Shown here: positions 30,001-33,000 of the stretch, piece by piece | Numbering within the stretch: position 1 is the stretch's first letter | How the letters are laid out: every line of letters begins with the position of its first letter | Assembly: GCA_963662405.2 (NCBI GenBank) | Contig: CAXXKT010000001.1 | Coordinates: 64,001-128,000 of the forward strand | Source of the DNA: Syntrophales bacterium | GTDB lineage: Bacteria; Desulfobacterota; Syntrophia; Syntrophales; UBA2210 | Length of the DNA stretch: 64,000 bases | Direction: 5' to 3' | Program-made: the position numbers

Positions 30001-33000
30001 GATATCGTCCCTTCAACCATTACGGTCATGGGAAAGGGGACCGAGCGACTCAATGATTCACGTAAACGAGAACTCTCCCCCCTGAAGGCCCTCCAGATGT
30101 TCCACGAGTATGTCGATAAGACATTCGAAGATGTGGGAAGCCGGTTCGCCGAAGTTGCCCTGCGGATCCACGCCGGCGAGGAAGACCACAGAAACATCAA
30201 GGGAACCACGACGGAACGGGAAGAAACCGTCCTCACTGAAGAAGGCGTCCCTTTCGTCAAGATCCCCGTACCGAAGTTCGACAGCTGACTCCGATGCAAT
30301 CGGGGGGCTCCCCATGAAAAAACGCTATAACAATATTCTTGATCTGATCGGGGGTACCCCTCTCGTTGAGATCCGCCGTTTAAATCCCCACAAACACGTC
30401 ACCATCTATGCCAAAATGGAGGTGATGAATCCCGGTGGATCAATCAAGGACCGAACCGCTCTCGCTATGATAGAGAGGGCCGAGGAGAGGGGGGACCTCA
30501 CTCCTGGAATGATCATCCTCGAGGCAACCAGCGGCAACACCGGCATCGGTCTTGCGATGGTCGCGGCAGCAAAGGGGTATCGCCTGACCCTGATCATGCC
30601 CGAGTCGGCCAGCGAAGAGCGGAAAAAAACAGTAAAGGCCATGGGCGCCCACCTGCATCTGACCCCGGCCGAGCTGGGAACCGACGGCGCGATCGAGGTG
30701 GCGTACGAGATGCTCCGTGCTCATCCCGAACTATATTTCGCCACCGATCAGTTCAACTCCGAAGACAACATCATGGCCCACTACCACGGAACGGGGGAAG
30801 AGATCTGGGAGCAAACCGACCATCAGGTTACCATGGTCGTGGCAACCCTCGGGACATCCGGGACCGTTATGGGCATCTCCCGGAGGCTTAAAGAATACGG
30901 CAAAGATATAAAAATCGTCGGGGTTGAACCCTATCTCCACCACAAGATTCAGGGGCTCAAGAACATGAAGGAGTCATACCGGCCGGGTATCTTCGATAGG
31001 AACCTCCTGGATGAAAAGGTCAACATCCTGGATGAAGACGCCTTTGAGATGGCCCGGGCCCTGGCACGCACCGAGGGACTCTTCGTCGGCATGAGCTCCG
31101 GTGCGGCCATGCACGTGGCCCTCGAAAAGGCCCGGGAGATGAACGAGGGGGTGATCGTGGTCATCTTCCCCGACGGCGGTGAGCGGTATCTCAGCACATC
31201 CCTCTTTTCGGACCGTGAAGAGGTTTCTCTTCACCTGTACAACACGCTCACCCGGACCAAAGAACCCTTCAAACCGCGCAACGCCGATCAGATCCTGATG
31301 CACTCATGCGGACCAACCATGCACGAGGTGCCGCACATCGGGACATACCGCCGCTTCATCGTGGCGGACATGGTCGTCCGCTATTTGGAATTCAAGGGAT
31401 ATACGGTCAAACATGTCTCCAACATCATAGACCTGGCCGACCGATCCGTCCGCGGAGCCGAGAAGGCAGGCATGGATATCGGGGCCTTTACCCGCGGGCA
31501 CACCGAGACCTTTTTCAACGATCTCGCCACGCTCAATATCAATCATGATAATACCTACCCAACGGCGAGTGAAAACGTCGACGCTATGATCCAACTGACG
31601 GAGCAACTCGTGGAGAGAGGGTATGCTTACGAAAAGCTGCGGTCCGTGTATTTCGACATATCACGGCTCGAAGGCTACGGGACTTTGTCAAATATAGACT
31701 TGGCACACGTCCGCCATTCTCAGACAATCGACCAAGACGATTACGCAAAGGACAGCCCCGTCGACTTCAATCTTCTCAAGCGGTCTACTCTGGCTGAGCT
31801 GAAGGAGGGAATCTATTTTAAGACAAAGTGGGGAAACACCAGGCCCAGTTGGCACCTCGAGTGCGCAGCCCTCTCCATAAAGTATCTGGGGGAAACCTTT
31901 GATATCTACCTCAGTGGTACGGACATCATCTTCCCGCACTGCGAGAACGTCATGGCGATCGGCAAGGCCGCAACGGGGAAAAATATCGCGAACTACTGGC
32001 TCGCCTCCGAACTCGTCATGCTGGACGGCAAAAAGATGTCACGATCCCTGAACAACTTCTTCTCCGTGGTCGATCTCGAGAAGAAAGGATACACCGGGAA
32101 AGAGATCCGATATTTTCTCCTGAGTGCCCATTACAGAAAGCCTCTGTCCTTCTCATTCGGCGCACTGGATACCGCCTGTAACACAATCAAGAAACTGGAT
32201 ACCTTTATCCAGAGGCTCCTCCGGTTCTCCCCGGGGGGTGGTTACCCCGAGACGGATCAGCTCATATACGACGTCAGGAAGGGGTTTACCGAGGCAATGG
32301 ATGACGATTTCAACATCTCCGGAGCACTCGCCTCCCTGTTCGAATTCGTCAGGAAAATCAACATTCCTCTGGCGGCAAACCAACTGACCACACAGCAGAG
32401 GGACTTGATTCTTGCTATCATGCAGCGGATCAACTCCGTCCTTCTCGTGATGGATTTTCAGGAAAAGAGACTCAGTAGCGATGCCGCACTACTGATGAAG
32501 GAACGAGCAACGGCACGGGCCGCAGGCAACTGGGAAGAATCCGACCGCCTGCGCCGGGAACTTGATGCTCGGGGAATTTGCGTTCACGATACACCGGAAG
32601 GAACAACATGGACCGTCCGGTAAAACTATTGGCCTCCAGGGATTGTCATCCTCACGGGCAGGCCGAAAGGGAATCTTTATGAAATTTGTTTTGCTCATCG
32701 CCGCGCTGATTGCGGCCTACATACTCAGCCAGTGGGGTGTCATCATGATCACGAAGAGTGTCTGCAGACGTATTATTAAAGACCTTGATTCAAAAAGGGC
32801 ATACGCTGCGGATTCGGCCGTCTCTCTCCCCTATGCGCAGAAGAAAGGGCTGCTTCACATCGGTACGAGAGACTACAAACCGCAGGCTCTTCAGTATCTG
32901 GTACACAAAGGAATAGTCTGTGCGACGGATGACGGCAGGTTTTACCTTGACGCCGCAAAGTCACAGGATACTATCCGATTGTAGTCTCCCGGGCGCGCCG

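What a model noticed while it worked through the whole genome (the two positions that open the first line are those of the whole stretch)
30314..32623. Order-wide second cysteinyl-trna synthetase paralogue fused to a cysteine-synthase-type enzyme, with remodelled class-I [...]
g00102 (769 aa) joins a complete cysteine-synthase-type pyridoxal-phosphate domain (res. 9-287, cofactor lysine motif kept) to a complete cysteinyl-trna synthetase body with anticodon-binding domains (res. 319-766), but both class-I signature motifs are changed (the last His of the first motif is Thr, Ser or Asn; the second Lys of the second motif is Arg) and one presumed zinc ligand (Glu) is Val with a new Cys three residues before. 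The genome also keeps a canonical synthetase (g01789, both motifs intact). The fusion is thus not the housekeeping ligase but a conserved enzyme of unknown, probably trna-linked, cysteine or sulfur chemistry.
Evidence so far: Pfam rows and coordinates; motifs read from the sequences. Of 119 full-length homologues of 740+ aa (from the best 120 of call 114, all 66-99% identical, named only 'cysteine--tRNA ligase', Syntrophus aciditrophicus among them) the cofactor lysine motif is kept in 114, the changed first motif in 113 (none canonical), the changed second motif in 116, the changed zinc-site motif in 117. In 30 relatives from 13 Syntrophales families a canonical synthetase (61-84% identity) is found in 29-30 and a 770-800 aa fused paralogue (34-39% identity to g01789) in about 27. 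One full-text search (cysteinyl-tRNA synthetase, cysteine synthase, fusion, Syntrophus) listed 9 papers, none on this protein by titl [...]
(Added by a program. Inside this text positions count along the whole contig: contig position 64,001 is position 1 of the stretch shown here. "Call 12" and the like, gene names such as g00115 and contig names such as C1 are that model's own, and its searches are not shown. The text may have been shortened before it was handed on; [...] marks where a part breaks off. The agent that wrote the report below was given it as the finding of a first reader that could run no searches.)

Follow-up and report, generated by a model that had tools for sequence, protein, structure and literature searches.

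The report
Cysteine synthase fused to CysRS paralogue
One gene joins a working-looking cysteine-making enzyme to a remodelled second copy of the enzyme that loads cysteine onto its tRNA, and relatives across a whole bacterial phylum suggest that this second half is kept mainly to hold the cysteine tRNA, not to be the cell's ordinary charging enzyme.

Summary
In detail: window 30314-32623 (+) encodes a 769-aa protein with a complete CysM-type PLP domain and a full-length CysRS-like body carrying HIGT, KMSRS and PHCENV. A canonical CysRS lies elsewhere in the genome.

- Asn at the fourth HIGH position is the normal state of most canonical CysRSs. Only Thr or Ser is unusual.
- The family is phylum-wide, not order-wide: 160 of 401 sampled genomes carry it.
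- It is a separate CysRS paralogue clade. ATP motifs, and in some lineages the zinc ligands, decay lineage by lineage, while the PLP motifs and the tRNA-Cys anticodon-contact residues stay conserved, even in 111 dead Desulfovibrionales-type proteins.

The fused gene is the only CysK/M homologue in 5 of 10 single-contig genomes. It is almost mutually exclusive with canonical CysE (3 of 160 against 83 of 241 genomes).

Best reading: a CysE-independent cysteine synthase tied to tRNA-Cys by a CysRS-derived binding module. The Syntrophales form keeps a conserved ATP site and may still charge tRNA. Function is untested.

No paper on it was found in ten full-text searches. This scan found the same family at least twelve times before on other genomes.

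The parts
30302..30307 (+). G-run (GGGGGG), likely ribosome-binding site 7-12 nt before the ATG
   Evidence: read directly from the sequence
30314..32623 (+). 769-aa fused gene (stop codon included)
   Evidence: The best 120 homologues cover 89-100% of it, most of them 99-100%
30338..31174 (+). CysM-type PLP domain, residues 9-287
   Evidence: Pfam PALP 246.7 bits; TIGR01136 363.5 bits over its cut-off; alignment to E. coli CysM 2BHS
30446..30448 (+). Codon of Lys45, the PLP Schiff-base lysine in GGSIKDR
   Evidence: K45 is invariant in 46 phylum-wide fused proteins
31211..31228 (+). Short linker, residues 300-305
   Evidence: domain limits; AF2 pLDDT is below 50 at residues 300-302
31268..32179 (+). 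CysRS-like catalytic body, residues 319-622
   Evidence: Pfam tRNA-synt_1e 271 bits; alignment to E. coli CysRS 1LI5
31334..31345 (+). HIGT, residues 341-344 (E. coli HIGH 37-40)
31850..31864 (+). WHLEC, residues 513-517 (E. coli Trp205...Cys209)
31937..31951 (+). HCENV, residues 542-546 (E. coli His234 kept, His235->Cys, Glu238->Val)
32033..32047 (+). KMSRS, residues 574-578 (E. coli KMSKS 266-270, Lys269->Arg)
32285..32443 (+). DALR_2 helical domain, residues 658-710
32471..32611 (+). CysS_C anticodon-binding domain, residues 720-766
32516..32554 (+). Residues 735-747, holding Arg735, Trp740, Asp744 and Arg747 (E. coli Arg427, Trp432, Asp436, Arg439, the anticodon contacts)
   Evidence: mapping through the alignment; role of the E. 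coli residues from passages of PMC13449415; conservation counts

Best explanation
The protein is a cysteine synthase of a route that does not use CysE. It is probably an O-phosphoserine sulfhydrylase of the CysM type. Its C-terminal half is a CysRS paralogue kept as a tRNA-Cys-binding module, not as the housekeeping ligase.

Shown:
- The PLP half has every catalytic motif.
- The CysRS half belongs to a separate paralogue clade.
- A canonical CysRS always accompanies it where genomes are complete enough to judge.
- The anticodon-contact residues are conserved throughout the family, while the ATP motifs and zinc ligands are not.

Inferred:
- The family's common function is to bind tRNA-Cys, and in most lineages a zinc-bound thiol ligand. 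This would tie cysteine synthesis to the state of tRNA-Cys or cysteine, much as HisZ does for HisG or the HisRS-like domain does for GCN2.
- In the Syntrophales form studied here, the ATP-site residues are fixed and the zinc pocket is remodelled (Thr68->Ile, His235->Cys, Glu238->Val). The module therefore probably still binds ATP, and it may still charge tRNA-Cys slowly with the cysteine made next door.
For: PLP half:
- All catalytic motifs are present.
- They are intact in 38 of 38 family representatives, in 111 of 111 Desulfovibrionales-type proteins and in 119 close homologues.

Separate clade:
- 20 rows lie on one side of a branch with SH-aLRT 96, against 91 rows on the other.
- Clade-wide changes at canonical invariants include Lys269->Arg. 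The second Lys is K in 0 of 38 representatives and R in 15.

Mosaic decay in the 38 family representatives:
- 13 keep HxG, KMS[RK] and the three zinc ligands.
- 7 have lost KMSKS only.
- 12 have lost both ATP motifs but keep Cys28, Cys209 and His234.
- 6 have lost everything.

tRNA binding:
- The positions of E. coli Arg427, Trp432, Asp436 and Arg439 show the same residue profile in four sets: 90 canonical sequences, 46 phylum-wide fused, 111 dead forms and 120 Syntrophales sequences. Their role comes from passages of PMC13449415.
- CP-domain invariants are kept at 100%.

A canonical CysRS is present alongside it.

Cysteine-synthase role and CysE:
- The fused gene is the only CysK/M match in 5 of 10 single-contig genomes.
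- Those five have no CysE and no SepRS.
- Canonical CysE is in 3 of 160 fused-bearing genomes against 83 of 241 others.
- This genome has no CysE (best match 39.6 bits).
- Lys216, at the place of E. coli CysM Arg210, is invariant in 119 of 119 and 48 of 48 sequences.

Syntrophales ATP site: His341, Gly343, Asp at E. coli 229, K-M-S-R-S and Asn at E. coli 273 are each identical in 44 of 44 sequences.
Against: - No activity, binding or expression datum exists.
- P0001 itself keeps nearly the whole catalytic apparatus and passes the cysS equivalog cut-off, so it may simply be an active second ligase.
- Lys-to-Ala mutants of E. coli Lys269 were reported to keep translation activity (passages of PMC5660078), so KMSRS need not disable charging.
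- About half of the fused-bearing genomes carry an EpsC-type serine-acetyltransferase homologue (77 of 160). O-acetylserine supply is therefore not excluded in them.
- Genomes of one family are kin, so the CysE contrast is overstated as a statistic. By family it is 3 of 50 against 26 of 61, compiled by hand.
- No conserved operon partner was found.
- The O-phosphoserine preference rests on the absence of CysE and on one conserved basic residue. Its link to the phosphate site of the M. tuberculosis enzyme is recalled, not tested.
Confidence: 0.45

Rival explanations
1. True bifunctional enzyme. The PLP half makes cysteine and the CysRS half is an active second ligase. It takes that cysteine directly and loads it on tRNA-Cys, a form of substrate channelling that keeps free cysteine low.
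For: - cysS equivalog score over the cut-off.
- ATP-site residues fixed in 44 of 44 Syntrophales sequences.
- Cys28, Cys209, His234, Trp205 and the anticodon contacts are kept.
- The linker is only about six residues.
- There is an independent fusion with fully canonical motifs in a Nanoarchaeota MAG (P0124).
- Lys269Ala E. coli CysRS was reported active in translation (passages).
Against: - 15 of 62 canonical near-invariant columns are changed, including Thr68, His235, Glu238 and Lys269.
- The protein is never the only CysRS in a genome complete enough to judge.
- 25 of 38 family representatives, and all 111 Desulfovibrionales-type proteins, have lost KMSKS or more yet keep the domain. Charging therefore cannot be the family's conserved function.
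Confidence: 0.25
2. tRNA-dependent chemistry. The CysRS-like half holds aminoacyl-tRNA-Cys while the PLP half acts on the tRNA-bound amino acid, an analogue of SepCysS or a PLP-based editing or conversion step.
For: - tRNA-binding residues are conserved even where the ligase site is dead.
- The PLP domain is always intact.
- The short linker fixes the two halves together.
Against: - No SepRS was found in this genome or in five complete carriers.
- The carboxylate-binding TSGNTG loop expected for a free amino acid is invariant.
- The fused protein is the sole CysK/M homologue in 5 of 10 complete genomes, which fits ordinary free-cysteine synthesis.
- The PLP fold is type II, not that of SepCysS.
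Confidence: 0.08
3. Altered-substrate ligase or sulfur relay. The remodelled zinc pocket of the Syntrophales form, with its new Cys543, either activates a cysteine derivative made by the PLP half (for example cysteine persulfide or S-sulfocysteine) or carries a persulfide.
For: - Order-specific, fixed changes surround the amino-acid site: His235->Cys in 44 of 44, Glu238->Val/Ile/Thr in 44 of 44, Thr68->Ile/Val in 43 of 44.
- The ATP site is conserved.
- E. coli CysRS is reported to make cysteine persulfide with PLP (passages of PMC5660078).
Against: - Purely inferential.
- Adjacent His and Cys rarely bind one metal together (general knowledge).
- The changes make the pocket more hydrophobic, which does not point to any particular substrate.
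- Outside the order the pocket is either canonical or lost.
Confidence: 0.07
4. The CysRS-like half is a structural or vestigial appendage with no ligand-binding role.
For: Catalytic motifs decay repeatedly. No conserved partner genes were found.
Against: - A ~460-residue domain is kept in 160 of 401 genomes.
- It has 27 invariant and about 30 nearly invariant columns, including all the anticodon contacts and a clade-specific CP-domain signature.
- That pattern indicates purifying selection on a binding surface.
Confidence: 0.1

Closest known systems
Canonical bacterial cysteinyl-tRNA synthetase (E. coli CysS, PDB 1LI5/1U0B; NCBIfam TIGR00435)
   Same: - Same full-length architecture, aligned over residues 306-767.
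- Cys28, Trp205, Cys209, His234 and the anticodon contacts Arg427/Trp432/Asp436/Arg439 are kept.
   Different: - Fused to a CysM-type domain.
- HIGT and KMSRS in place of the canonical motifs; Thr68->Ile, His235->Cys, Glu238->Val.
- 15 of 62 near-invariant columns changed.
- Separate clade.
- Co-exists with a canonical enzyme.
CysM / O-phosphoserine sulfhydrylase-type cysteine synthases (E. coli CysM 2BHS; M. tuberculosis CysM 3DKI is among the PDB matches)
   Same: - N-terminal half aligns end to end with E. coli CysM (E 5e-79), with all PLP and substrate-loop motifs.
- A basic residue (Lys216) stands at the place of E. coli CysM Arg210.
   Different: - Carries a 460-residue CysRS-like extension.
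- Scores below the cysM equivalog cut-off (369.2 against 394.2 bits).
- Substrate preference is untested.
HisZ with HisG, and the HisRS-like domain of GCN2 (recalled from general knowledge)
   Same: - A synthetase paralogue that co-exists with the real synthetase.
- It loses catalytic motifs in many lineages.
- It is physically joined to another enzyme, here the biosynthetic enzyme of the same amino acid.
- GCN2's domain binds tRNA.
   Different: - Class I, not class II.
- Covalent fusion.
- The anticodon-binding domain is kept (HisZ lacks one, as recalled).
- No regulation has been shown here.
- The Syntrophales form still looks catalytically equipped.
Known CysRS paralogues: MshC and CysRS* (listed in review PMC9437257, passages)
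   Same: CysRS-derived proteins with a function outside ordinary charging.
   Different: - Both lack the anticodon-binding domain according to that review and PMC2922099. This protein keeps it.
- The MshC model scores 177.5 bits against a cut-off of 485.1.
- No SelC*/SelB* context is present.

Membership tests
Canonical CysRS (TIGR00435 equivalog) | Full-length architecture and a model score over the curated cut-off | tested here: met
   380.6 bits against a cut-off of 340; all four Pfam domains present
Canonical CysRS (TIGR00435 equivalog) | HIGH motif ending in His or Asn | tested here: not met
   HIGT. All stand-alone canonical representatives end in H or N. The close homologues have T, S or N and never H
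Canonical CysRS (TIGR00435 equivalog) | KMSKS with the second lysine (E. coli Lys269) | tested here: not met
   KMSRS. Lys is 100% conserved in 90 canonical representatives; Arg in 118 of 119 close homologues
Canonical CysRS (TIGR00435 equivalog) | Zinc ligands Cys28, Cys209, His234 and Glu238 (the ligand assignment is recalled; the positions are mapped) | tested here: not met
   Three are kept. Glu238 is Val, and the column is 100% Glu in 90 canonical representatives
Canonical CysRS (TIGR00435 equivalog) | Anticodon-contact residues (E. coli Arg427, Trp432, Asp436, Arg439) | tested here: met
   Arg735, Trp740, Asp744 and Arg747
Canonical CysRS (TIGR00435 equivalog) | Groups with canonical enzymes in a tree and serves as the genome's CysRS | tested here: not met
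   Separate clade, SH-aLRT 96. A canonical gene scoring 555.8 bits lies elsewhere in the genome
Canonical CysRS (TIGR00435 equivalog) | Aminoacylation of tRNA-Cys with cysteine | not testable with these tools
   Needs an enzyme assay
CysK/CysM cysteine synthase (TIGR01136 subfamily) | Model score over the cut-off, PLP lysine, TSGNTG loop, Gly-rich phosphate loop and SSG | tested here: met
   363.5 bits against 344.15; motifs
CysM equivalog (TIGR01138) | Score over the equivalog cut-off | tested here: not met
   369.2 bits against 394.2
O-phosphoserine sulfhydrylase | Use of O-phosphoserine instead of O-acetylserine | not testable with these tools
   Indirect only: no CysE in this genome and the invariant Lys216
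Synthetase-like regulatory module (HisZ / GCN2 type; works-like comparison) | Paralogue beside a canonical synthetase and physically joined to another enzyme | tested here: met
Synthetase-like regulatory module (HisZ / GCN2 type; works-like comparison) | Loss of catalytic motifs | tested here: inconclusive
   P0001 keeps HxG, KMSRS and three zinc ligands. 25 of 38 family representatives and 111 Desulfovibrionales-type proteins have lost motifs
Synthetase-like regulatory module (HisZ / GCN2 type; works-like comparison) | Ligand- or tRNA-dependent control of the partner enzyme | not testable with these tools
   Needs kinetics with and without tRNA-Cys, cysteine and ATP
MshC | Model score over the cut-off and no anticodon-binding domain | tested here: not met
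   177.5 bits against 485.1. DALR_2 and CysS_C are present
SepRS/SepCysS route | SepRS present in the genome | tested here: not met
   Best match 28.8 bits against a cut-off of 380.65

The most novel reading that the evidence does not exclude
A metabolic enzyme that reads a tRNA. Across much of Thermodesulfobacteriota the classical CysE/CysK pathway has been replaced by an O-phosphoserine-dependent cysteine synthase. Its built-in pseudo-CysRS domain binds tRNA-Cys (and, where the zinc pocket survives, cysteine) and switches cysteine synthesis according to demand. This would be a bacterial counterpart of GCN2 or HisZ wired directly into the biosynthetic enzyme. The Syntrophales form would be an intermediate that still uses ATP.
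Probability: 0.3. Interest if true: 0.85.

Novelty: new variant of a known kind. Interest (0 to 1): 0.7.

Why it matters
- Databases name this family either 'cysteine--tRNA ligase' (Syntrophales) or 'cysteine synthase' (Desulfovibrionales). Both names miss that it is one family with a decaying ligase half. Genome-based counts of aminoacyl-tRNA synthetases and of cysteine pathways in sulfate reducers and syntrophs are therefore distorted.
- The fused protein is the only cysteine synthase homologue in half of the complete genomes checked, and it almost never co-occurs with canonical CysE. It therefore probably marks the main cysteine route of a large anaerobic phylum.
- If the conserved tRNA-reading head controls the enzyme, this would be a directly testable case of tRNA-sensed amino-acid biosynthesis in bacteria. 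It would also be a natural series showing how a synthetase turns into a pseudo-enzyme.

Tried and rejected
- Gene neighbourhood. Window neighbours are housekeeping genes: pfkB, DUF4416, yicC, gmk, pyrF, a SpoU methylase, pilC and DUF1178, then on the other strand an nth-like gene, fdhE and a formate dehydrogenase. Across 38 loci no partner recurs beyond single lineages; the recurring ones are tmk, surE, lptD, murJ and nusG.
- SepRS route. No SepRS in this genome or in five complete carriers.
- MshC and CysRS* membership rejected.
- Strict complementarity with every serine acetyltransferase homologue rejected. An EpsC-type class is present in about half of the carriers.
- Complex prediction of the two halves as separate chains gave no verdict (median 0.31, mark 0.32).
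- The AF2 model is confident for both halves (pLDDT 89.6, pTM 0.77), but no coordinates are returned, so the relative position of the two active sites could not be read.
- Sequencing runs: no RNA holder listed.
- The 1354-aa open frame in L050 is only an upstream open stretch without any domain.
- Literature. Ten full-text searches, including the S. aciditrophicus accessions Q2LQ77 / ABC76162 / WP_011416196, listed no paper on this fusion. I saw only passages of PMC2922099, PMC5388404, PMC9437257, PMC8762117, PMC1779556, PMC5660078 and PMC13449415. Supplements were not searched.
- I could not align the PLP half to M. tuberculosis CysM or Aeropyrum OPSS, because the tool shows only the top matches.
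Full report
**1. The observation**

The open frame at window 30314-32623 (+) gives 769 residues without a stop. It begins 25 nt after the stop of a DUF1178 gene and 7-12 nt after a G-run.

Pfam places four domains:
- PALP at residues 9-287 (246.7 bits).
- tRNA-synt_1e at 319-622 (271 bits).
- DALR_2 at 658-710.
- CysS_C at 720-766.

NCBIfam gives these scores:
- cysS at 380.6 bits (cut-off 340).
- The cysKM subfamily at 363.5 bits (cut-off 344.15).
- The cysM equivalog at 369.2 bits, under its cut-off of 394.2.

The printed alignment to E. coli CysRS 1LI5 shows Cys28, Trp205, Cys209 and His234 kept. It also shows these changes:
- HIGH (37-40) to HIGT.
- Thr68 to Ile.
- Lys73 and Lys76 to Arg.
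- His235 to Cys.
- Glu238 to Val.
- KMSKS to KMSRS.

The alignment to E. coli CysM 2BHS shows the PLP lysine, TSGNTG, GTSGT and SSG motifs intact, and Lys216 at the place of Arg210.

The best 120 homologues are all fused, 66-99% identical, and named only 'cysteine--tRNA ligase'. Syntrophus aciditrophicus Q2LQ77 is among them. In the 119 that are at least 740 aa long I counted:
- S[IVT]KDR in 119.
- TSGNTG in 118.
- KMSRS in 118.
- PHCEN[VTI] in 118.
- Ile at Thr68 in 115.
- Cys28 in 116.
- T, S or N at the fourth HIGH position, never His.

**2. The genome**

The assembly is 3.80 Mb in 3 contigs. It holds:
- A canonical CysRS (555.8 bits) with HIGH, PHHENE and KMSKS.
- A stand-alone CysK (366 bits), 45% identical to the fused PLP half.
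- One tRNA-Cys (GCA anticodon, U73, A37) and one tRNA-Sec.

It has no CysE (best match 39.6 bits against a cut-off of 210.65) and no SepRS (28.8 bits). The neighbours of the fused gene are housekeeping genes.

**3. What is and is not unusual in the ligase half**

I tabulated 108 CysRS domains from the 50%-identity representatives.
- Stand-alone canonical enzymes read Cys / H-x-G-[NH] / WHxEC / PHHxNE / K-M-[SA]-K-S.
Thr, Ser and Leu are confined to the paralogue group.

I then took every column at which at least 93% of 90 canonical representatives agree (62 columns).
- 44 Syntrophales fused sequences depart at 15 of them.
- Seven departures are shared by the whole fused clade. In the numbering of this genome's canonical enzyme they are Trp184, Trp194, Gly201, Ser210, Gly226, Gln241 and Lys269->Arg.
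- The others are mostly peculiar to the order. In E. coli numbering they include Tyr26->His, Thr68->Ile, His235->Cys (44 of 44), Glu238->Val/Ile/Thr (44 of 44) and His256->Asn/Ala.
- The P0001 positions printed are one too high. The positions in this report are corrected.
- The ATP-site columns are identical in 44 of 44 Syntrophales sequences: HIGH His and Gly, Asp229, K-M-S-R-S and Asn273.

**4. A phylum-wide family with a decaying ligase half**

*Tree.* In a quick IQ-TREE of 111 domains, 20 rows lie on one side of a branch with SH-aLRT 96: 9 fused, 6 N-terminal fragments and 5 apparently stand-alone. The other side holds 91 rows, made up of all 90 canonical domains plus P0124.

*P0124.* It is fused, has canonical HIGN and KMSKS, nests inside a canonical clade and comes from a Nanoarchaeota MAG. 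It is probably an independent fusion.

*Spread.*
- The fusion is in 98 of 121 genomes of the order.
- It is full length in 160 of 401 genomes drawn evenly from the phylum, in 99 of 254 genera, and mostly all-or-none by family.
- The phylum is Thermodesulfobacteriota according to source names.
- The most divergent members are the ~760-aa 'cysteine synthases' of Desulfovibrio, Pseudodesulfovibrio, Maridesulfovibrio, Desulfonatronovibrio, Desulfonatronospira, Desulfonauticus and relatives.

*Dead forms.* In 111 full-length Desulfovibrionales-type proteins the PLP motifs are intact (TSGNTG in 111 of 111), while Cys28, HIGH, Cys209, Glu238 and KMSKS are all gone.

*Family representatives.* One representative per family (37 loci plus the window) gives:
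- 13 with HxG, KMS[RK] and three zinc ligands.
- 7 that lost KMSKS only.
- 12 that lost both ATP motifs but keep Cys28, Cys209 and His234.
- 6 that lost everything.
- The second KMSKS lysine is never Lys (0 of 38) and is Arg in 15.

**5. What stays conserved**

E. coli Arg427, Trp432, Asp436 and Arg439 are the residues mutated to change anticodon specificity, and Arg427 is described as bonding G34 (passages of PMC13449415). Through the alignment they are Arg735, Trp740, Asp744 and Arg747 of this protein.

Their residue profile (R/K, aromatic, D, R) is the same in four sets:
- 90 canonical enzymes.
- 46 phylum-wide fused proteins.
- The 111 dead Desulfovibrionales-type proteins (Asp and Arg439 in 111 of 111).
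- 120 Syntrophales proteins.

In the 46-sequence alignment A1 the ligase half has 27 invariant columns. They include Arg731, Asp744 and Asp759 and a block in the CP domain. That block carries a clade-specific signature, AYEK-x-RSVYFD and DFTLLKR..L.ELK...WGNVRPSW, in place of the canonical DFxLWK...GEP.W.SPWG.GRPGW. The signature is also present in the dead forms.

So binding of tRNA-Cys is the feature under constant selection, and catalysis is not.

**6. Relation to the canonical ligase**

In the order, the only carriers without a separate CysRS match are two incomplete genomes, 87% and 75% complete.

In the phylum sample, 365 of 401 genomes have a canonical-level match. By my reading of the tables, 13 carriers lacked one. 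Nine of these were searched again:
- Seven have a separate gene. One is read in two frames, two are split at contig ends, one is partial and three are full length at 422-448 bits.
- Two fragmented genomes show only the fusion (95% complete in 210 contigs; 97% complete in 710 contigs).

Four fragmented genomes were not rechecked. G029 of the order has its canonical gene in two frames. The fusion is therefore never demonstrably the sole CysRS.

**7. Relation to cysteine synthesis**

In 5 of 10 single-contig genomes the fused gene is the only CysK/M-family match at E <= 1e-40. Those five have no CysE (best 44.3 bits) and no SepRS.

| Measure | Carriers of the fusion | Other genomes |
|---|---|---|
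| Canonical CysE over cut-off, phylum sample | 3 of 160 | 83 of 241 |
| Same, by family (hand count) | 3 of 50 | 26 of 61 |
| Same, order sample | 13 of 98 | 10 of 23 |
| Any serine-acetyltransferase homologue at E <= 1e-30 | 77 of 160 | 187 of 241 |

Fisher's exact test on the phylum counts gives p = 6e-18, but kin are not independent.

A second, lower-scoring acetyltransferase class just passes the EpsC model (152.3 bits, cut-off 150). Supply of O-acetylserine is therefore not excluded everywhere. In this genome neither class was found.

Two points fit an anionic substrate such as O-phosphoserine or thiosulfate. Lys216 is invariant, where CysM has Arg210 and this genome's own CysK has Gly. 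The N-half also scores better against CysM than against CysK. That the equivalent arginine binds the phosphate in the M. tuberculosis enzyme is recalled, not tested.

**8. Reading**

The PLP half is most simply the cell's, or one of the cell's, cysteine synthases in a CysE-independent route. The ligase half is a CysRS paralogue whose constant property is recognition of tRNA-Cys.

My preferred mechanism (confidence 0.45) is that it couples cysteine synthesis to tRNA-Cys, and where the zinc pocket survives also to cysteine. The classical feedback point, CysE, is missing in these organisms.

The Syntrophales subgroup has fixed ATP-site residues and a remodelled but fixed pocket. It probably still binds ATP and may still charge tRNA. 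That possibility is the main rival, a true bifunctional channelling enzyme (0.25). The rival is strengthened by the independent Nanoarchaeota fusion and by the report that Lys269Ala E. coli CysRS still supports translation (passages of PMC5660078).

The minor rivals are:
- tRNA-dependent PLP chemistry (0.08).
- An altered-substrate ligase or persulfide relay through Cys543 (0.07).
- A vestigial domain (0.10).

**9. Known or new**

A review of synthetase paralogues lists only CysRS* and MshC for CysRS (passages of PMC9437257). Neither fits.

Ten full-text searches found no paper on the fusion. Supplements were not searched, and subscription journals are not in the library.

The architecture is visible in public databases under two conflicting names.

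Earlier reports of this scan describe the same family on at least twelve other genomes. Their conclusions are similar: the dead halves keep the anticodon residues, the HisZ analogy holds, and the fusion is the only cysteine synthase in about half of its carriers. I reached my reading before looking at them. A word search of the earlier notes found none that mentions the near-exclusion with canonical CysE.

**10. Limits**

- No experiment, expression datum or coordinate-level model was available.
- Complex prediction gave no verdict.
- The AF2 model is confident for each half (pLDDT 89.6, pTM 0.77) but returns no geometry.

Noticed in passing
window 36184-38658 (-): An 824-aa molybdopterin oxidoreductase ORF (formate-dehydrogenase type, next to fdhE) starts only at profile position 99 of the Molybdopterin domain. 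Its N-terminal part probably lies beyond an in-frame stop, which could be a selenocysteine TGA. The genome has a tRNA-Sec.
   Followed up: no
P0124 (768 aa, MAG labelled Nanoarchaeota): A cysteine synthase-CysRS fusion with fully canonical HIGN, PHHQNE and KMSKS. Its ligase half nests among canonical CysRSs, so it looks like an independent fusion of the same two enzymes in an archaeon.
   Followed up: partly
P0142, P0145, P0148, P0154, P0162, P0168, P0196, P0232 (604-995 aa): The representative search also returned proteins with two cysteine-synthase-type PALP domains in tandem.
   Followed up: no
G161:C2:129281-130649 and G029:C54:5523-6849: In two high-quality genomes that carry the fusion, the canonical cysS matches in two adjacent reading frames. 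This could be a frameshift or an assembly error.
   Followed up: no
L069 561-1520 (+) (G007) and many other genomes: A 300-380-aa serine-acetyltransferase-like class scores 157-180 bits on the cysE model, below its cut-off. It just passes the EpsC model (152.3 against 150). It is common in the phylum, in 77 of 160 fusion carriers, and its role in cysteine synthesis is unclear.
   Followed up: partly
G073:C129:223-2230: One Syntrophales genome has a third CysRS gene (592.8 bits) directly downstream of a canonical cysE on a short contig. This could be foreign DNA or contamination.
   Followed up: no
P0137 (468 aa; cluster with many 468-aa members) and P0144 (484 aa, on a 269-kb contig): Stand-alone members of the paralogue clade (HIGL or HIGT; KMSRS or KMARS) exist without a fused PLP domain. 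Whether a cysteine synthase gene lies next to them was not checked.
   Followed up: no
window 32562-32984 (+), 33000-33437 (+), 34711-35277 (+), 35326-36456 (+): Four ORFs of 140-376 aa downstream of the fused gene have no Pfam match. The first overlaps the 3' end of the fused gene by 62 nt and may not be real.
   Followed up: no
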